Assembly: GCA_020027245.1 (NCBI GenBank)
Contig: JAHRAN010000056.1
Coordinates: 1-55,055, forward strand
Reading direction: 5' to 3'
Source of the DNA: Myxococcota bacterium
GTDB taxonomy: Bacteria > Myxococcota_A > UBA9160 > UBA6930
DNA length: 55,055 nt
The translations under genes were made by a program, and so were the position numbers. The notes beneath the pieces are model-generated. The model did no database searches and was not told where the DNA came from. It saw only the letters and a list, made by a program, of their open reading frames with translations. This document shows, in pieces, positions 2,995-9,053 of the stretch; position 1 is the stretch's first letter; each line of letters opens with the position of its first letter.

Positions 2995-3020
2995 CCGCGG
3001 TGCTTGCGCACCCCGCCCCA

Positions 3021-3053
3021 CCTTTTGACCGCCCCGAGCGGCTGCCGGATTCC
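3021..3053. repeat. Intergenic repeat family B copy (TTTTGACCGC..GAGCGGCTGCCGGA)
   Basis: ccttttgaccgccccgagcggctgccggattcc. The same motif recurs at 23871, 31095 (rc), 31869, 34075 (rc) and 46866. Confidence 0.7.
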
Positions 3054-3226
3054 TCCCTGCATAAGAGGGTTGGGGGGTTGAGGTCCGGGCGAGGGTTCAT
3101 AATTTTTTTGAAATTTATTTTAAATTTTGCTTGCACGGGTTGCTTTGTGCGTATAGAGTGCGCCCAACTTGAAGCCACTGGAGGTGCACTCGATGCCCGG
3201 CAACGCCGTAGCGAACTCTGTTTTGC

Positions 3227-6200
3227 GTGACAACTTTACCCCCCCCCCCCCCCGGGGGCGGCGATGGGCCGACTCATGAGGTCAACCGCGCACGGCTGAC
3301 CGGACGCCGCTCGGCGTTCCTCCGAAAAATTATTGCCGCGCTCACTCTGGGCGCGGCTTTTCTGTTGCACGCGCCAGCGGCCTTCGCGCAGACCGTCCCG
3401 ACCGTGCGAAGCCTTTCGATCACGAGTAACCCCGGTGCGGATGGCATGTATGTCACCGGCGACAACATTGAGGTCACCGTCACTTTCAGCGCGCGCATCC
3501 TCTCCTCCAGCGCGCAGCTCGAGCTGACCGTGGGTTCGGCACCCCGGCAGGCGCGATCCTCTGGCGTGGCGAATCCCTCATCCGGCCATAATCAGTTGGA
3601 GTTTCGCTACACCGTGATGGCGGCTGACACAGACACCGATGGCATCAGCATCGCCGCGAATTCGCTGGCCGGCGACATTGTCGATGGTGTAACGCCCCAC
3701 CCCAACGCCAATCTCAATCACCGGGCGCTCCCTGCCAACTCCGGTCATCGGGTGAACAGTGCGCAGACCACGCCGACCGGCCCGACTGCGGGAAGCCCGA
3801 CTGTGACAAGCGTTGCGCTCGCGACTCCCCCCGGTGATGACGGCATGCATGTACCCAACGAGGTCATTGACGTTTTCGTCACCTTCAGCGAGGCAGTCAG
3901 CGTCACCGGCACGCCGCAAATCGCGCTGACCGTGGGTTCGGTAACCCGGCAGGCGAACTACCGCAGTGGCAGCGGCACGGGGTCTCTGTTGTTTCAGTAC
4001 ACCGTGATGGCGGCAGATCGGGACACCGATGGCATCAGCATCGCCGCCAACGCGCTGCGCCTGAACGGCGGCATGATTAACTCCGCCACCAACAGCGCCA
4101 CCGCCGCCAATCTCATGCACGGGGAGGAGCCCTTCCCGGCGCACCGGGTGAACGTGACCGGCGCCCCGCCAGTGGCAGGCCCGACTGTGGAGACCCCGCC
4201 AGTGAACTGCCCGGCTGCGGACAGCCTGACCGTGCGCGACCTGGCGATCACAAGCCTCGCCGATGCGGACGGGAGCTATGCCACCGGCGACACCATCGCC
4301 GTCACCGTCAGCTTCAACGCATGCGCCACCGTTACCGGAGTGCCGCAGCTCGCGCTGACCGTGGGTTCGGCAACCCGGCAGGCGGACTACAACCGTGGCA
4401 GCGGCACGACGGCGCTGGTGTTCGAATACACCGTGGTGGAAGCCGACGCGGATATGAACGGCATCAGCATCGCCGAAGACAGCCTGACGGCGACGGGCGA
4501 TGACATCACCATCGTCGCCACCGCCGACGCCGACATCGCCGCCGAACTCGATCACGCGGCGCTCGCCGCCGACCCCGATCATCTGGTGAACGCCAGCATC
4601 CCGACCGTGAGCGGCCTGGCGATCACGAGCGACGCCGGTATGGACAACATGTATGTAACAGGCGACACCATCGCCGTTACCCTCACCTTCAGCGAGGCAG
4701 TCAGCGTCACCCGCACGCCGGAACGCATGGGCACGCCGGAGCGCATGGGCACGCCGGCGCGCACGCCGCAACTCGCGCTGACCGTGGGCACGGAAACCCG
4801 GCAGGCGGACTACGAGAGCGGCAGCGGCAGCACGGCGCTGGTGTTCGAGTACGAAGTGGTGGCGGCAGATCGGGACACCGATGGCGTAAGCGTCGCCGCC
4901 AACACGCTGCACCTGAACGGCGGCGGCATTAACTCCGCCGCGTCCGGCGCCATCATCGCCAATCGCGCGCACATGGCGCTCGCCGCCGACGAGGCGCAGC
5001 GGGTGAACATCGCGCCGATGGTGATCGGCACGCGGATCACGAGCAACCCCGGCAGCGATGGTATGTATGCCACCGACGACAACATTGATGTCACCGTCAG
5101 CTTCAGCGTGAGCGTCAGCGTTACCGGCACGCCGCATCTCACACTGACCGTGGGCTCGCAAACCCGGCAGGCGAACTACCTGAGCGGCGGCCACAGTTCG
5201 GCGCAGGCGTCTCCGGGAAACAGCCTCAACCGCAACCACGAGGGCGGGGGCGGCAGCCCCGGCACAGCGCTGGTGTTTCGCTACACCGTGGTGGCGGCAG
5301 ATCGGGACACCAACGGCATCAGCGTCGTCGCCGACAGCCTGACGGCGATGGGCGCCAACACCATCGTCGCCACGGACGGCGGGATGAACGCCGTGCTCGA
5401 TCACGCGGCGCTCGAAGCCGACAACGACCACTTGGTGCGCTACGAGCCGATCGGCCTGTGCGCCGACGACCCGATGGCGCGCAGCGAAGCGGTGCGCAAC
5501 GCAATTCTGGCGCGCCTGTCGGCCACTGCGGCGACGTGCGCCACCGTCACCGAAACGAATTTGAACAGCGTGAGCGGCCCGCTGGATATTTCCAGTCGGA
5601 GCCTCGCTGAATTTCTGCCGCGCGACTTCGCCGGCCTGGGTGCGGTGACCAGACTGGACTTGTCCGGCAATATGCTGAGCGTCCTGCCCTTCGATGCATT
5701 TGCAGGCCTGCCCACGCTGACCAGCTTGGACTTGTCCGGCAACTCGCTGGCCGGGCTGCCCGTGACGGTGTTCAACGGTTTGGACGCGCTGACCACATTG
5801 GACCTGTCCGACAACTCGCTGGCCGCACTGCCCGTCGGTGTATTTGCTGAACTCGACGCGCTGACCACCCTGAACCTGAACGGCAATGCGCGTTTGATGC
5901 TGCCGTCCGGCGCACTGAATCCGGTCATCAATACCCTTACAACGCTGAACCTGGCCAATACCCCCTACGCCCCCGCGCCGGTCATCAGCGTTGTGGTTCT
6001 GGGGGAGGCTCTCCATGCCTCCCCGGGCGCGCCGGCGACCTTCACGCTGGTCGCTACGCGCTCGCAGGTGCCGGTGGAGCTGCTCGCCGCTACGCAGGTT
6101 GCGTGGTCGGTGACGGGCGGCGGTCTGGCTGCCGCGCAGACCGGCACGAACACCATCCCCGCTGGCGGCAGCAGCGCGACCTTTACGGTTACGCCGACTG

Positions 6201-8713
6201 CAGTGGGTGATCTCACCTCCACGATTACCGCCATCCGTGCGCTTCGGGGAAGTGCAAACCCCATCACCAACACCGGCGTGGCGAATGCACTGGTCAACCC
6301 GACTGCCGGGCTGGCGAGCAACACCATACGGGTAGTAACCGAACCGATGACTGCCGAGTTCACTGGCAACACCGGCATGGTGACCGAAGACGCGAGCCTG
6401 ATCGCCGCAAGCGGTACCCTCACCGTGAGCGCCACCGACGATATGGGCAATGACATTGCGCTTAGGTTCGGCCCCACCATCTCGCCGGGGGCTTTTGGCA
6501 CTCTCACGGTCAATGCCGCTGGCGTGTGGACCTACACGCTGGATAACGCGAACCCCATGGTCAACGCGCTGGCGGAAGGCGCCACGCTGACCGACGACAC
6601 CACCAGGGCGAGCGCCATCAATACCGCCGAAAATGTCGGTGCCCTCGGTGAGGTCACCATCACCATCACCGGCGCGAACGATGCGCCGACTGCCGATGCC
6701 GGCGAGGCGCAAAACATGGTGGCCGATGGCGCGATGGTGACGCTGGACGGCAGCGAATCGAGCGACCCCGACAGCGGCGAGACCGAGACGCTGACCTACG
6801 CATGGTCGCAGACCGGCTCGACGCCAACCGGTACCACCGTCGAACTCACGGGCGCTGACACGGCCCAGCCGAGCTTCACGGCGCCCGAGGTGGCGGAAGG
6901 GATGATGCTGACGCTGACCTTCAGCCTGACCGTCACCGACGCGCAGGATGCGGCCTCGGCGACGGCCGACACCGTGGAGATCACGGTCGGCGGCATGCAA
7001 GACGCGCCGGTGATCGAAGATGTCGAAAGCCCGGAGCGTGTGCGCGTGGGCGACACGGTGGTGCTGACGGCCACCGCCAGCGACCCGGAAGGCCGGCGTC
7101 TGGCCTATTCATGGGCGCTCGACACGATGCTCCCCGCTGGCCTCAGCGTGGCGCTCGTGGGCGCCGAAACCGCCCGCGCTTCCTTCACCTTCAGCGAAGA
7201 ACTGGCGGCGGCGGTGCAGAGGCTGCGGTTCACCGTGACCGTCACCGACATCGCGGAGATGTCAACCGAGCAAAGCGTAACCGTCGCCATCAGCGGCCGT
7301 TACGAAGCCACCGAGGCGGCGCTTCAGGAACAGGTGCTGCCACAGGTGGTGCGCGCGATGATGACGCGCAGTGTGGGAACCATCGCGGGCCGCATCGAGC
7401 GGGTTGCCGAAAGCGCAGACAGCGGCGGCGGCGTCAAGAGCGCCTCGCTGAAGCTGGGCGGCGGTCTGCTCGGTCAGGCGCAGGCGCTGCGCGATGAGCA
7501 CTTCGACGCGAAGCAACTGCTCGCCGGCAGTTCCTTCGCACAGCCCCTGTCGTCGTTGAACATGAACGGGTCAGGTGGCGTGCTCTCGGGTCTCACCCTG
7601 TGGGGCGAGGGCGACTACCTGAGTTTTGACGGTAACTCCGGCGGCGTGGACTGGGATGGCGAGTTGTATGGCTTCCATGTGGGCGTGGATACCCAGTTGA
7701 CAAAGGAGTGGTTGGCCGGCGTGGCGCTCTCGTGGAGCGAGAGCGAAGTGGACTACCGGCTGGCCGCCGGCACTGCTGGCAGCCCGGCGGCCGACAGCGG
7801 CGAGCAGACGCTGTCCATGGTCAGCGTGCATCCCTACCTGAGCTTCTTCAGCCACGACGGGCTCGATCTCTGGGCGACGGTCGGTTACGGCACGGGCGAG
7901 TTGGAAGTCGAAGCGGCGGGCGAGGCCAGGGTGTCCCGGGACGCCGAGTTGTTCACCGTGGGGCTGGGCGTCAGCAACGCGCTGTGGGACAACGATGCGT
8001 CTGCGGTGCATTTCAAGGGCCGGGTGTCGCGTGGCGCGCTGGACATAGACGCGGCGAGCGAAGTGAACCTGATGTCGTCGGATGTGGCTGCCTACCAGTT
8101 GAATCTGGGGCTGGAAGCGAGCCACACCGCGCGGTTCGGCGACCGCGCGCTGGCGCTGGCGCTCGAAGCCGGCTGGCGTCACGAGGGTGGCGACGGGCGC
8201 GGCGGCAACGGCGCGGAAGTGACCGGCAGCATGCGCTACACGCATCCGGCCAGTGGCCTGAGCGTGGAACTGCGCAGCCACACCCTGCTGGGCCGTAGCG
8301 GTTACGATGAGTGGGGCATCTCGGGCGGCATCGTGCGCGAGGCGAAAGGCGGCCAGGGTCTGTCGTTCAGCCTGCGCCCGCGCATTGGCTACGCCCCGCG
8401 CACGCTGGACGCCCTCTGGCAGGACGCCGATGCCGCTTACTACGGGAGCGGAACAAAGGGCGAGGGCGCTTTGAGCGAGCACGGCCGGCGGCTCGAGATG
8501 GAACTGGGCTACGGCATCGGCCTCGGCTGGCGTGAAGCATTGCTGACCCCCTACACCGGCCTGACACTGGGCGAAGGCGCCCGCCGCTATCGCCTCGGCA
8601 GCCGCCTGCACACAAGCCAGCACTGGCGCAGCAGCGTGGAACTCCTGCGCGAAGATCGCCGCGACCGGTCAGCCGAGCACAGCATCCTGCTGAAACTCGA
8701 CCTCGACCTGTAA
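3227..8713 (+). CDS. Giant autotransporter-type surface protein (repeat modules + LRR + VCBS-like + PKD-like + C-terminal beta-barrel)
   Basis: 1,828-aa ORF. Signal peptide KIIAALTLGAAFLLHAPAAFA|Q. The last ~380 aa show the alternating beta-strand pattern of autotransporter translocators (LTLWGEGDYLSFDG, YGFHVGVD, AGVALSWSES, ELGYGIGL). The start is uncertain because of the poly-C tract (see findings). Confidence 0.85.
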   Translation: MTTLPPPPPGGGDGPTHEVNRARLTGRRSAFLRKIIAALTLGAAFLLHAPAAFAQTVPTVRSLSITSNPGADGMYVTGDNIEVTVTFSARILSSSAQLELTVGSAPRQARSSGVANPSSGHNQLEFRYTVMAADTDTDGISIAANSLAGDIVDGVTPHPNANLNHRALPANSGHRVNSAQTTPTGPTAGSPTVTSVALATPPGDDGMHVPNEVIDVFVTFSEAVSVTGTPQIALTVGSVTRQANYRSGSGTGSLLFQYTVMAADRDTDGISIAANALRLNGGMINSATNSATAANLMHGEEPFPAHRVNVTGAPPVAGPTVETPPVNCPAADSLTVRDLAITSLADADGSYATGDTIAVTVSFNACATVTGVPQLALTVGSATRQADYNRGSGTTALVFEYTVVEADADMNGISIAEDSLTATGDDITIVATADADIAAELDHAALAADPDHLVNASIPTVSGLAITSDAGMDNMYVTGDTIAVTLTFSEAVSVTRTPERMGTPERMGTPARTPQLALTVGTETRQADYESGSGSTALVFEYEVVAADRDTDGVSVAANTLHLNGGGINSAASGAIIANRAHMALAADEAQRVNIAPMVIGTRITSNPGSDGMYATDDNIDVTVSFSVSVSVTGTPHLTLTVGSQTRQANYLSGGHSSAQASPGNSLNRNHEGGGGSPGTALVFRYTVVAADRDTNGISVVADSLTAMGANTIVATDGGMNAVLDHAALEADNDHLVRYEPIGLCADDPMARSEAVRNAILARLSATAATCATVTETNLNSVSGPLDISSRSLAEFLPRDFAGLGAVTRLDLSGNMLSVLPFDAFAGLPTLTSLDLSGNSLAGLPVTVFNGLDALTTLDLSDNSLAALPVGVFAELDALTTLNLNGNARLMLPSGALNPVINTLTTLNLANTPYAPAPVISVVVLGEALHASPGAPATFTLVATRSQVPVELLAATQVAWSVTGGGLAAAQTGTNTIPAGGSSATFTVTPTAVGDLTSTITAIRALRGSANPITNTGVANALVNPTAGLASNTIRVVTEPMTAEFTGNTGMVTEDASLIAASGTLTVSATDDMGNDIALRFGPTISPGAFGTLTVNAAGVWTYTLDNANPMVNALAEGATLTDDTTRASAINTAENVGALGEVTITITGANDAPTADAGEAQNMVADGAMVTLDGSESSDPDSGETETLTYAWSQTGSTPTGTTVELTGADTAQPSFTAPEVAEGMMLTLTFSLTVTDAQDAASATADTVEITVGGMQDAPVIEDVESPERVRVGDTVVLTATASDPEGRRLAYSWALDTMLPAGLSVALVGAETARASFTFSEELAAAVQRLRFTVTVTDIAEMSTEQSVTVAISGRYEATEAALQEQVLPQVVRAMMTRSVGTIAGRIERVAESADSGGGVKSASLKLGGGLLGQAQALRDEHFDAKQLLAGSSFAQPLSSLNMNGSGGVLSGLTLWGEGDYLSFDGNSGGVDWDGELYGFHVGVDTQLTKEWLAGVALSWSESEVDYRLAAGTAGSPAADSGEQTLSMVSVHPYLSFFSHDGLDLWATVGYGTGELEVEAAGEARVSRDAELFTVGLGVSNALWDNDASAVHFKGRVSRGALDIDAASEVNLMSSDVAAYQLNLGLEASHTARFGDRALALALEAGWRHEGGDGRGGNGAEVTGSMRYTHPASGLSVELRSHTLLGRSGYDEWGISGGIVREAKGGQGLSFSLRPRIGYAPRTLDALWQDADAAYYGSGTKGEGALSEHGRRLEMELGYGIGLGWREALLTPYTGLTLGEGARRYRLGSRLHTSQHWRSSVELLREDRRDRSAEHSILLKLDLDL
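3239..3258 (+). repeat. Homopolymer tract C15 followed by G5
   Basis: Counted directly: C at 3239-3253 and G at 3254-3258. The tract lies inside the first 11 codons of the long ORF. Confidence 0.95.
3392..5450 (+). repeat. Five tandem ~125-145-aa passenger modules (coding repeat)
   Basis: Module starts are near 3401, 3797, 4226, 4600 and 5017. Each has the pattern ITS..G.DG.Y.TGD.I.VTV.F...V.VTGTPQL.LTVGS.TRQA.Y..GSG...L.F.YTV.AAD.DT.GIS. Confidence 0.85.
4715..4768 (+). repeat. 18-bp in-frame tandem repeat (TPERMG x2 plus partial copies)
   Basis: acgccggaacgcatgggc / acgccggagcgcatgggc / acgccggcgcgc / acgccgcaa. This is an insertion in module 4 relative to the VTGTPQ junction of the other modules. 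Confidence 0.9.
5582..5965 (+). other. Leucine-rich repeat block inside the autotransporter passenger
   Basis: 24-aa periodic LxxLxLxxNxLxxLPxxxFxGL units: LDLSGNMLSVLPFDAFAGLPTLTSLDLSGNSLAGLPVTVFNGLDALTTLDLSDNSLAALPVGVFAELDALTTLNLNGN. Confidence 0.85.
6349..6690 (+). other. VCBS-like domain segment
   Basis: G.VTED......SGTLTVSATD....FG......G.FGTLTVNAAGVWTYTLDNANP.VNALAEGATLTD......ITITGANDAP is the classical VCBS repeat pattern. Confidence 0.65.
6691..7300 (+). other. Two PKD/cadherin-like beta-sandwich segments
   Basis: ADAGEAQ.V.DGAMVTLDGSESSDPD..ETLTYAWSQT......F.APEV....TLTFSLTVTD, and a second VVLTATASDPEGRRLAYSWAL...RFTVTVTD. Confidence 0.55.
7560..8710 (+). other. Autotransporter beta-barrel translocator domain
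   Basis: The C-terminal region has amphipathic strands rich in G/Y/W/L. It is preceded by a helical linker (EAALQEQVLPQVVRAMMTRSVGTIAGRIE). Confidence 0.7.
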
Positions 8714-8821
8714 GCCCGCCGGACTGCCCCCGTCCGAGGTGGTTGCCGCCCCGGGCGAGGTGCTGATGCACCACCACCCCGTCATTCCCCGTCTATGCGG
8801 GAATGACGGGAAGCCCCGTCG

Positions 8822-8915
8822 CCCCTCCCTCTCCCTTACAGGGAGAGGGGAATTAACCAAGCGACGGAAGGGACCTCTGCTCCCTCTCCCTATGGGAGAG
8901 GGCTGGGGAGAGGGC
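8822..8915. repeat. Intergenic repeat family A, double-hairpin copy
   Basis: Hairpins cctctccc-ttaca-gggagagg and ctccctctccc-tat-gggagaggg are joined by aattaaccaagcg...acctctgc. Near-identical copies lie at 41192-41280 and, reverse-complemented, at 31021-31095. Confidence 0.85.
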
Positions 8916-8976: not shown

Positions 8977-9053
8977 GGGGCGGTAGTTCAACTGGTTAGA
9001 GCACCGGCCTGTCACGCCGGAAGTTGCGGGTTCGACTCCCGTCCGCCCCGCCA
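8977..9053 (+). tRNA. tRNA-Asp (anticodon GTC)
   Basis: Cloverleaf folded by hand. Acceptor GGGGCGG/CCGCCCC, anticodon stem CCGGC/GCCGG with loop CTGTCAC, T-loop GGTTCGACTCC, and an encoded CCA. Confidence 0.9.

What the first reader, a model, noticed from the sequence alone, without database searches (positions are those of the whole stretch)
3180..3280. A C15G5 homopolymer separates a strong SD+ATG from the 1,828-aa autotransporter ORF: candidate slipped-strand phase switch
Seen in the sequence: 15 consecutive C (3239-3253) are followed by GGGGG. In the frame of the long ORF the only start upstream of the signal peptide is GTG 3227. That GTG has no purine-rich SD in the preceding 15 nt, and from it the tract is read as PPPPPGGG. 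A much better initiation site lies 34 nt upstream: GGAGG at 3180-3184, an 8-nt spacer, then ATG 3193. That ATG is in a different frame. It reads through the tract and stops at TGA 3277 after 28 codons. Deleting one C (C14) or adding two (C17) would fuse ATG 3193 to the full ORF. Established knowledge: homopolymer tracts at the 5' ends or promoters of adhesin and autotransporter genes drive ON/OFF phase variation in Neisseria, Haemophilus and Bordetella. Inference: the gene is captured in an OFF or low-expression state, or the tract length was miscalled by sequencing.
Basis: partly seen in the sequence, partly recalled or inferred. Interest (0 to 1): 0.7.

Follow-up and report, generated by a model that had tools for sequence, protein, structure and literature searches.

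The report
Poly-C frameshift switch before autotransporter gene
A run of 15 cytosines lies between the best ribosome start site and a 1,828-residue surface-protein gene of an uncultivated Myxococcota-like bacterium; this is the layout of the slipped-strand ON/OFF switches known from Bordetella, Neisseria and Haemophilus, but no second copy of the locus exists in public data to show that the run varies.

Summary
C15 (3239-3253) plus G5 is the only homopolymer longer than 7 in the 55-kb contig, and it is far beyond chance. It is not explained by coding for polyproline. It sits inside the 5' leader of an intact autotransporter ORF (3227-8713), downstream of both canonical starts. ATG 3193 has a GGAGGT Shine-Dalgarno 7 nt upstream but is out of frame at C15. 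GTG 3227 is in frame at C15, has no Shine-Dalgarno and is followed by three rare codons. The third frame has no start. Tract length therefore sets three registers: C14/C17 strong, C15 weak, C13/C16 null. Codon usage favours the ATG frame before the tract and the ORF frame after it. The contig's most AT-rich block lies 60-100 nt upstream of the ATG. The closest precedents are B. pertussis bapC (C14 then G11 at the 5' end), meningococcal nalP/mspA and H. influenzae licA. The defining test, tract-length polymorphism, could not be run. No orthologue or second copy turned up in the protein, genome or metagenome collections. A consensus miscall (true C14) cannot be excluded either. Verdict: a plausible new member of a known kind, of modest interest.

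The parts
3092..3135 (+). AT-rich block (17% GC) with 11-nt phased repeats AATTTTTTTGA/AATTTATTTTA. Putative promoter or UP-element region.
   Evidence: Lowest-GC 41-nt windows of the whole 55-kb contig. 11-nt direct repeat at 3101-3122. The promoter role is inferred.
3131..3159 (+). Weak sigma-70-like pair TTGCAC, 17 nt, TAGAGT (7 of 12). It would place the transcript start near 3166, about 25 nt before ATG 3193.
   Evidence: Read from the sequence. The consensus scan at 9 of 12 found no promoter, so this is tentative.
3180..3185 (+). Shine-Dalgarno GGAGGT, 7 nt before ATG 3193.
   Evidence: GGAGG at 4-9 nt precedes at least 7 long high-GC3 ORFs in the window.
3193..3279 (+). Frame-1 reading frame from ATG 3193. 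At C15 it is a 28-codon ORF ending at TGA 3277. At C14 or C17 it becomes the N-terminus of the autotransporter.
   Evidence: Best codon usage of the three frames before the tract.
3227..3229 (+). GTG, the only canonical start in frame with the ORF at C15. It has no Shine-Dalgarno and lies inside the frame-1 ORF.
   Evidence: The following codons ACA ACT TTA are rare.
3239..3253 (+). C15 homopolymer, the proposed slipped-strand tract.
3254..3258 (+). G5 run directly abutting the C tract.
   Evidence: Same C-then-G order as the two 5' tracts of bapC (PMC1891110).
3296..3388 (+). Core Sec-type signal peptide (LTGRRSAFLRKIIAALTLGAAFLLHAPAAFA, then QT). Homologues begin at about the position of CTG 3296.
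   Evidence: The BLASTP alignment to P0001 puts its Met1 opposite L24. N-termini of 18 homologues.
3227..8713 (+). Intact 1,828-aa autotransporter ORF: about five 130-aa Ig-like repeats, LRRs, cadherin/VCBS, two PKD domains, and a C-terminal beta-barrel.
   Evidence: Pfam hits: LRR_8, K319L-like PKD, and Autotransporter PF03797 at 56.8 bits against a cutoff of 26. NCBIfam. Homologues.
7607..8218 (+). Pfam-matched stretch of the autotransporter beta-domain (residues 1461-1664, PF03797 positions 6-212 of 255).
   Evidence: Barrel homologues at 31-41% identity carry PF03797.

Best explanation
The C15 run is a hypermutable simple-sequence tract inside the 5' coding leader of a surface autotransporter/adhesin gene.

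Proposed mechanism:
- Slipped-strand mispairing during replication adds or removes C residues.
- Both usable start codons lie upstream of the tract, so each change moves the 1,828-codon ORF between three registers.
- C14/C17: in frame with ATG 3193 and its strong GGAGGT Shine-Dalgarno (full ON).
- C15, as sequenced: in frame only with GTG 3227. This start has no Shine-Dalgarno and is buried inside the translated 28-codon out-of-frame ORF (weak or effectively OFF).
- C13/C16: in frame with no start (OFF).
- The population would therefore be a mixture of cells with and without this LRR-bearing surface protein.

Shown: the anatomy, the frames, the non-random tract, Shine-Dalgarno usage and the codon-usage switch across the tract.

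Inferred: that the tract length changes, and that expression follows it.
For: - The tract is real and non-random.
- Polyproline coding does not explain it: P(5 x CCC) is about 0.007, and other PPP runs use CCG.
- GGAGG is used as a Shine-Dalgarno by at least 7 real genes in the window.
- GTG 3227 has no Shine-Dalgarno and is followed by rare codons, including TTA at 0.27 per 1000.
- Mean codon log-odds before the tract: frame 1 -0.28, frame 2 -1.70, frame 0 -0.83. After the tract the ORF frame is best at +0.29.
- The contig's most AT-rich block lies just upstream of the Shine-Dalgarno and ATG.
- The ORF is intact over 5.5 kb with a complete signal peptide directly after the tract. This argues against both an old pseudogene and a chimeric join.
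- Experimentally established precedents have the same layout. The bapC G11 tract varies within single colonies, and a C14 tract lies upstream of it (PMC1891110). nalP has polyC 6-15 and is ON at 7/10/13 (PMC3723659). licA has start codons in two of three frames upstream of its repeat (PMC2212159).
Against: - There are no data on tract-length variation. No orthologue, second strain or overlapping independent assembly of the tract was found.
- Either start gives an unusually long signal-peptide n-region. The hydrophobic core begins at residue 35 (GTG) or 46 (ATG at C14), against a median of 15 (range 4-38) in 18 homologues.
- The promoter scan found no consensus promoter.
- The sequence appears to be a draft contig from an uncultured lineage, so C15 is a consensus that could be off by one.
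- A literature search found no report of homopolymer phase variation in Myxococcota.
Confidence: 0.55

Rival explanations
1. Consensus or sequencing miscall. The true (or dominant) allele is C14 or C17, so the gene is simply in frame with ATG 3193, and the apparent out-of-frame state is an artefact of calling a 15-base homopolymer in a metagenome assembly.
For: - The window is one whole 55,055-bp draft contig, and its relatives are all MAGs.
- Codon usage and the Shine-Dalgarno favour ATG 3193 as the real start.
- The 1,828-aa product is absent from the protein collection, although six neighbouring products of the same contig are present from NCBI. This would fit annotators not accepting it as an intact CDS (inference).
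- Meningococcal genome assemblies also sometimes fail at these tracts (PMC3723659).
Against: - Elsewhere the contig is accurate: it is 100% identical over 3,022 nt to an independent Logan assembly.
- The run-length spectrum shows no homopolymer compression.
- Even if the call is wrong by one, a 14-17 C tract in a coding leader would still be hypermutable. This rival changes the captured state, not the mechanism.
Confidence: 0.2
2. GTG 3227 is the genuine start, and the tract merely encodes PPPPPGGG in a long signal-peptide n-region. ATG 3193 with its Shine-Dalgarno is a chance site or a small upstream ORF, and no switching is used biologically.
For: - The deposited sequence gives an intact ORF from GTG 3227.
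- A few homologues have long, Pro-rich N-terminal extensions, for example P0029 with a hydrophobic core starting at residue 38.
- About 10 of 82 GGAGG sites in the window are followed by a start codon by chance.
Against: - There is no Shine-Dalgarno before the GTG, and rare codons follow it.
- The GTG lies inside a frame that a strong Shine-Dalgarno/ATG would keep occupied by ribosomes.
- Five CCC in a row is unlikely under local codon usage.
- A C15 run would still frameshift at high frequency, as shorter C/G tracts do in Bordetella.
Confidence: 0.12
3. Recoding rather than, or in addition to, DNA switching. Ribosomes starting at ATG 3193 stall on the CCC-CCC-CCC-CCC run and slip +1 into the ORF frame, or RNA polymerase slips on the C15 template. 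The C15 allele would then still yield full-length protein at a set level.
For: - The shift needed from frame 1 to frame 2 is exactly +1.
- CCC-C sites are the classic +1-prone proline sites, normally restrained by m1G37 and EF-P (PMC4519876, PMC7577736).
- Every position in the run allows perfect re-pairing.
Against: - No stimulatory structure was found: the leader folds no better than shuffles (z = +1.6).
- There is no conservation to show selection for frameshifting.
- Known programmed +1 sites are short, not 15-nt runs that are themselves genetically unstable.
Confidence: 0.08
4. The real start lies downstream of the tract, so the tract is in the 5' UTR and does not gate the frame. The start could be CTG 3296, possibly reached by termination-reinitiation through the overlapping ATGA (3276-3279) and CTGA (3296-3299) motifs. 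Alternatively it could be ATG 3276, if an undetected indel lies between 3279 and 3296.
For: - A start at 3296 would put the hydrophobic core at residue 12 and the first repeat motif at 43, matching the homologue medians of 15 and 44.
- The stop of the 28-codon ORF overlaps ATG 3276, and the stop of that 7-codon ORF overlaps CTG 3296.
Against: - CTG is a very poor bacterial initiator, and no Shine-Dalgarno sits at a proper distance (GAGG is 14 nt upstream).
- ATG 3276 is out of frame, and no homopolymer in 3279-3296 would explain an indel error.
- The two overlap motifs are short and easily arise by chance.
Confidence: 0.05

Closest known systems
Bordetella pertussis bapC (BP2738) autotransporter, 5' homopolymeric tracts
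   Same: - An autotransporter gene with a long C tract (C14 in Tohama I) followed by a G tract (G11) in the 5' coding region.
- The sequenced allele is out of frame, and a 1-base contraction restores it.
- The G tract varies within single colonies (PMC1891110).
   Different: - Here the G run is only 5.
- An alternative in-frame GTG makes the sequenced state possibly leaky.
- The host is an uncultivated Myxococcota-like bacterium, not a mucosal pathogen.
- There is no sequence homology beyond the barrel family, and variation is unproven.
Neisseria meningitidis nalP and mspA autotransporters (polyC in the coding sequence)
   Same: PolyC tracts of 6-15 bp (nalP) and 6-14 bp (mspA) lie inside autotransporter coding sequences. 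One length in three is ON, confirmed by immunoblot (PMC3723659).
   Different: - Those passengers are serine proteases. This one is an Ig-like-repeat/LRR/PKD adhesin-type passenger.
- No strain collection exists for this locus.
Haemophilus influenzae licA (lic1) translational switch
   Same: Start codons lie in two of the three frames upstream of the repeat, so the repeat number selects which start, if any, reads the gene (PMC2212159). This is the same logic as ATG 3193, GTG 3227 and no start.
   Different: It uses a tetranucleotide CAAT repeat rather than a homopolymer, and the gene is a cytoplasmic choline kinase rather than a secreted protein.
Bordetella fim2/fim3/fimX promoter polyC tracts
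   Same: Long C tracts (C12-C22) control a surface-structure gene (PMC1891110).
   Different: - Those tracts sit between promoter elements and act on transcription.
- Here no -10-like element follows the tract, and the tract lies downstream of the Shine-Dalgarno and ATG, so a translational frame switch fits better.

Membership tests
Simple-sequence-repeat contingency locus (translational phase variation) | A repeat tract long enough to be hypermutable (about 8 or more for C/G homopolymers) | tested here: met
   C15 at 3239-3253. It is the only run longer than 7 in 55 kb and is absent from all shuffles.
Simple-sequence-repeat contingency locus (translational phase variation) | The tract lies between the initiation codon(s) and the body of the ORF, so that indels not divisible by 3 change the frame | tested here: met
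   ATG 3193 and GTG 3227 are both upstream of the tract. The three registers were worked out.
Simple-sequence-repeat contingency locus (translational phase variation) | Tract length differs between strains or within a population | not testable with these tools
   No second copy of the locus was found in the protein collection, the GTDB genomes or the JGI metagenomes. The one overlapping Logan contig stops at window position 3022.
Simple-sequence-repeat contingency locus (translational phase variation) | Expression switches ON and OFF with tract length | not testable with these tools
   This needs reporter fusions or immunoblots of C14, C15 and C16 variants.
Type Va (classical) autotransporter | C-terminal autotransporter beta-barrel domain (PF03797) | tested here: met
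   PF03797 scores 56.8 bits against a cutoff of 26, residues 1461-1664. Barrel homologues carry PF03797.
Type Va (classical) autotransporter | N-terminal Sec signal peptide preceding the passenger | tested here: inconclusive
   A typical n-h-c pattern, RRSAFLRK-IIAALTLGAAFLL-HAPAAFA then QT, was read from the translation and aligns to homologue signal peptides. No signal-peptide predictor was available, and the n-region length depends on the unresolved start.
Type Va (classical) autotransporter | C-terminal aromatic residue of the beta-signal | tested here: not met
   The protein ends ...LLKLDLDL, whereas the homologue P0044 ends in F. This is a common but not universal feature, so it lowers certainty only slightly.
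Promoter-spacer homopolymer switch (Bordetella fim type) | Tract located between the -35 and -10 elements of the regulated gene | tested here: not met
   No promoter-like site spans the tract. The tract lies downstream of the Shine-Dalgarno and ATG, and no TAnnnT element follows it.

The most novel reading that the evidence does not exclude
This would be a genuine three-level (high/low/off) contingency switch on an LRR-bearing autotransporter adhesin in an uncultivated, environmental or host-associated Myxococcota-like lineage, a group in which a literature search found no such switch. The switch might be reinforced in two ways. A translation-dependent terminator-like hairpin (3335-3357 plus a T-run) inside the signal-peptide coding region could abort transcription when ribosomes stop at TGA 3277. 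Polyproline-stalled +1 slippage on the C run could also contribute. That would extend contingency loci beyond host-adapted pathogens. It would also show that MAG annotation systematically hides them.
Probability: 0.12. Interest if true: 0.55.

Novelty: new member of a known kind. Interest (0 to 1): 0.3.

Why it matters
- If the tract does vary, this lineage would use the same bet-hedging device as mucosal pathogens to switch a large, LRR-bearing surface protein on and off.
- That would imply fluctuating selection on the protein, for example from phage, predators or a host.
- It would also flag a practical blind spot. The gene is absent from a 5.8-billion-protein collection although its neighbours are present, so such loci are easily lost from MAG-derived catalogues.
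- As it stands, this is a well-formed candidate of a well-known mechanism, resting on one consensus sequence.

Tried and rejected
**Searches for an orthologue or second copy**
1. Protein search with the fused N-terminus (135 aa): no hit, not even a self-hit.
2. Full-length protein search: the best hit is 41% identical over 38% of the query, a shared repeat domain only.
3. Beta-barrel search: best hit 38% identity.
4. GTDB genome scan with the first 700 aa: nothing.
5. JGI metagenome scan with a DNA pattern allowing an 8-30 nt tract: nothing. The protein scan also found nothing.
6. Exact look-ups of the ORF product with V or M as first residue found nothing. Look-ups of 8 downstream starts also found nothing, but 6 of those 8 were submitted with V or L as first residue, so they are uninformative.

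**Synteny and other assemblies**
1. The mauG-like/metallophosphoesterase/SoxA-TsdA-like cytochrome operon is conserved in 24 loci. Nothing downstream of it is conserved, and there is no autotransporter homologue or long C/G tract there.
2. The only independent assembly of this organism (Logan SRR27685851) is identical to the window but ends at position 3022, before the tract.
3. Two start guesses for the downstream DUF885 gene, tried in order to find a contig entering from the other side, failed.

**Homologue loci.** L026 shows no long C/G tract and no tract before its gene starts. The DNA of L027 could not be read in that script.

**Alternatives tested and rejected**
- Structured leader or riboswitch: the fold is no better than shuffles, and Rfam gives only sub-threshold hits.
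- Promoter-spacer switch: no promoter spans the tract.
- Chimeric or poly-G artefact join. Rejected because the Shine-Dalgarno, ATG and AT-rich block on the left and a complete signal peptide plus 5.5-kb ORF on the right form one coherent gene start.
- Other contingency repeats in the window: none.
Full report
**What is there**

- GGAGG lies at 3180-3184 (GGAGGT to 3185), then 8 nt, then ATG 3193.
- That ATG reads in frame 1 through the tract and stops at TGA 3277 after 28 codons.
- Fifteen C lie at 3239-3253, followed directly by GGGGG at 3254-3258.
- The long ORF (3227-8713, 1,828 aa) is in frame 2. Its only canonical start upstream of the signal peptide is GTG 3227.
- The 20 nt before that GTG (CGTAGCGAACTCTGTTTTGC) contain no Shine-Dalgarno.
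- Deleting one C or adding two fuses ATG 3193 to the ORF.
- I add that the third register (C13, C16) joins the ORF to frame 0. That frame has TGA 3228 and no start codon, so it is a null state.

**Is it more than chance?**

- C/G run lengths in the 55-kb window fall off about five-fold per added base: 277, 42, 10 and 1 for lengths 4-7. Then there is a single run of 15.
- No dinucleotide-preserving shuffle produces even a C12.
- In 223 kb of loci from the nearest relatives, the longest C/G run is 8.
- Coding for polyproline does not explain the run. In 27 confident ORFs of the window, Pro is CCG 57% and CCC 37%. The three PPP runs are all CCG-CCG-CCG. Five CCC in a row has probability about 0.007.
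- TRF finds no other contingency-type repeat in the window.

**The gene**

- The ORF is a type Va autotransporter-like adhesin. Pfam gives LRR_8, K319L-like PKD, a cadherin-like domain, and the Autotransporter beta-domain at 56.8 bits against a cutoff of 26.
- The N-terminal 740 residues are about five copies of a 130-residue repeat. Giant surface proteins of many uncultured bacteria share this repeat at 36-41% identity.
- The ORF is uninterrupted for 5.5 kb and carries a typical signal peptide, RRSAFLRK-IIAALTLGAAFLL-HAPAAFA followed by QT.

**The organism and comparative evidence**

- The window is one entire 55,055-bp contig held under NCBI.
- The upstream operon (MauG-like peroxidase, metallophosphoesterase, SoxA/TsdA-like cytochrome c) has relatives at 65-80% identity only in MAGs, labelled Myxococcota, Deltaproteobacteria and the like.
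- Synteny ends at the cytochrome stop codon. Nothing downstream is conserved, and no relative has an autotransporter homologue or a long tract there.
- No orthologue exists in the collections I could search.
- Notably, the ORF's own product is absent from the protein collection, although six other products of the same contig are present from NCBI. I infer that the record's annotation did not accept it as an intact CDS.
- The one independent assembly of this organism (Logan, SRR27685851) is 100% identical over 3,022 nt but ends at window position 3022, about 217 nt before the tract.
- The test that would define phase variation, tract-length polymorphism, therefore could not be made. Neither candidate N-terminus could be checked against orthologues.

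**Which start?**

Internal evidence favours ATG 3193.
- GGAGG at 4-9 nt precedes at least seven long high-GC3 ORFs in the window, so this organism uses that Shine-Dalgarno.
- A GGAGG followed by a start codon also occurs by chance about 10 times in 82. I estimate a chance GGAGG-start pair in this 230-nt spacer at about 1-2%.
- Before the tract, codon usage is best in the ATG frame (mean log-odds -0.28, against -1.70 and -0.83). After the tract it is best in the ORF frame (+0.29).
- The three codons after GTG 3227, ACA ACT TTA, occur at 2.4, 1.9 and 0.27 per 1000.
- The most AT-rich 41-nt window of the whole contig (17% GC, 3092-3135), with 11-nt phased repeats, lies 60-100 nt upstream of the ATG. 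This fits a promoter or UP region.
- Only a weak TTGCAC-17-TAGAGT pair can be read there, and the consensus scan found nothing.

Evidence against either start being ancestral also exists.
- In 18 homologues with recognisable signal peptides, the hydrophobic core starts at median residue 15 (range 4-38).
- Here it starts at residue 35 from GTG 3227 and at 46 from ATG 3193 at C14.
- A start at CTG 3296 would give residue 12, and P0001's Met1 aligns exactly there.
- The tract-bearing leader therefore looks like an add-on of 20-30 residues in front of an ordinary signal peptide.

**Mechanism**

- Both canonical starts lie upstream of the tract. The tract therefore gates translation whichever one is used.
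- Only a start downstream of 3253 (non-canonical CTG or ATT, or ATG 3276 rescued by an unseen indel) would escape this.
- The best-supported model is a translational slipped-strand switch with three registers: C14/C17 strong, C15 weak, and C13/C16 off.
- In the C15 register, the SD-less GTG is also occluded by ribosomes translating the 28-codon frame-1 ORF.
- That long C/G tracts mutate at very high rates is established knowledge. The Bordetella bapC G11 tract diversifies within about 23 generations (PMC1891110).
- That this particular tract varies, and that expression follows its length, is inference.
- No RNA structure explains the region (z = +1.6). Rfam gives only sub-threshold hits.

**Rivals**

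1. The deposited C15 is a consensus miscall of C14 or C17. This would change the captured state but not the mechanism.
2. GTG 3227 is the real start, and the tract is a tolerated PPPPPGGG segment.
3. Recoding: +1 ribosomal slippage on CCC-C codons (PMC4519876, PMC7577736) or RNA-polymerase slippage gives leaky expression from C15.
4. The start is at CTG 3296, perhaps through the overlapping ATGA (3276) and CTGA (3296) stop-start motifs.
5. Decaying pseudogene or chimeric join. I consider both unlikely, because the ORF is intact and the two flanks form one coherent gene start.

**Comparison with known systems**

- The closest case is B. pertussis bapC, an autotransporter with C14 then G11 at its 5' end. 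It is out of frame in the reference genome and varies within colonies.
- Meningococcal nalP and mspA carry polyC tracts of 6-15 and 6-14 bp, with one length in three ON.
- The two-starts-in-two-frames logic is that of H. influenzae licA.
- The promoter-spacer type of switch (Bordetella fim) does not fit.
- A literature search found no report of homopolymer phase variation in Myxococcota.

**Verdict**

This is a new member of a known kind, of modest interest.

Noticed in passing
window 2995-3030; L001 end; L002 and L008 ends: Three independent assemblies end 28-38 nt after the stop of the SoxA/TsdA-like cytochrome gene: Logan SRR27685851 for this organism, and two related MAGs. Among 14 relatives nothing downstream of that stop is conserved. 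The operon end looks like a recurrent synteny and assembly breakpoint, so the autotransporter may sit in a strain-variable region.
   Followed up: partly
window 3335-3366 (and 3299-3372): A terminator-like hairpin, GCCGCGCTCA-CTC-TGGGCGCGGC followed by TTTTCTGTTG, lies inside the signal-peptide coding region. The same stretch gives a sub-threshold Rfam hit to suhB/mmgR (27.8 bits against a gathering score of 41). It could act as a translation-dependent attenuator that reinforces the OFF state, or it could be a by-product of Ala/Gly/Leu codons. The scan expects 0.7 such sites by chance.
   Followed up: partly
window 3276-3279 and 3296-3299: Two successive overlapping stop/start motifs. TGA 3277 of the 28-codon ORF overlaps ATG 3276. 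The TGA 3297 of that 7-codon ORF overlaps CTG 3296, which is in the autotransporter frame at the position where homologues begin. This is possibly chance.
   Followed up: no
window 3101-3127: An 11-nt phased AT-rich direct repeat (AATTTTTTTGA / AATTTATTTTA) lies in the lowest-GC spot of the contig. It may be curved DNA or a regulator-binding site upstream of the gene.
   Followed up: no
window 4713-4763: An in-frame 18-nt tandem repeat of 2.8 copies encodes TPERMG-TPERMG-TPA inside one passenger repeat of the autotransporter. It is a possible in-frame length-variable segment.
   Followed up: no
window 8778-8907 and 8977-9053: Three GC-rich hairpins (8778-8810, 8827-8849, 8884-8903, with the CCCTCTCCC/GGGAGAGGG motif) lie between the autotransporter stop and a tRNA-Asp gene. 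The gene is thus flanked by a synteny break on one side and a tRNA on the other, as accessory islands often are.
   Followed up: partly
window 3227-8713: The 1,828-aa product is not in the 5.8-billion-protein collection in any form, while six other products of the contig are present. Genes behind long homopolymers may be dropped systematically from MAG protein catalogues.
   Followed up: partly
L026 8001-9671 and other barrel homologues: The closest beta-barrel homologues are short proteins of 366-763 aa carrying little more than PF03797. One of them lies 1.5 kb upstream of a 7,796-aa LRR/Calx-beta giant gene.
   Followed up: no
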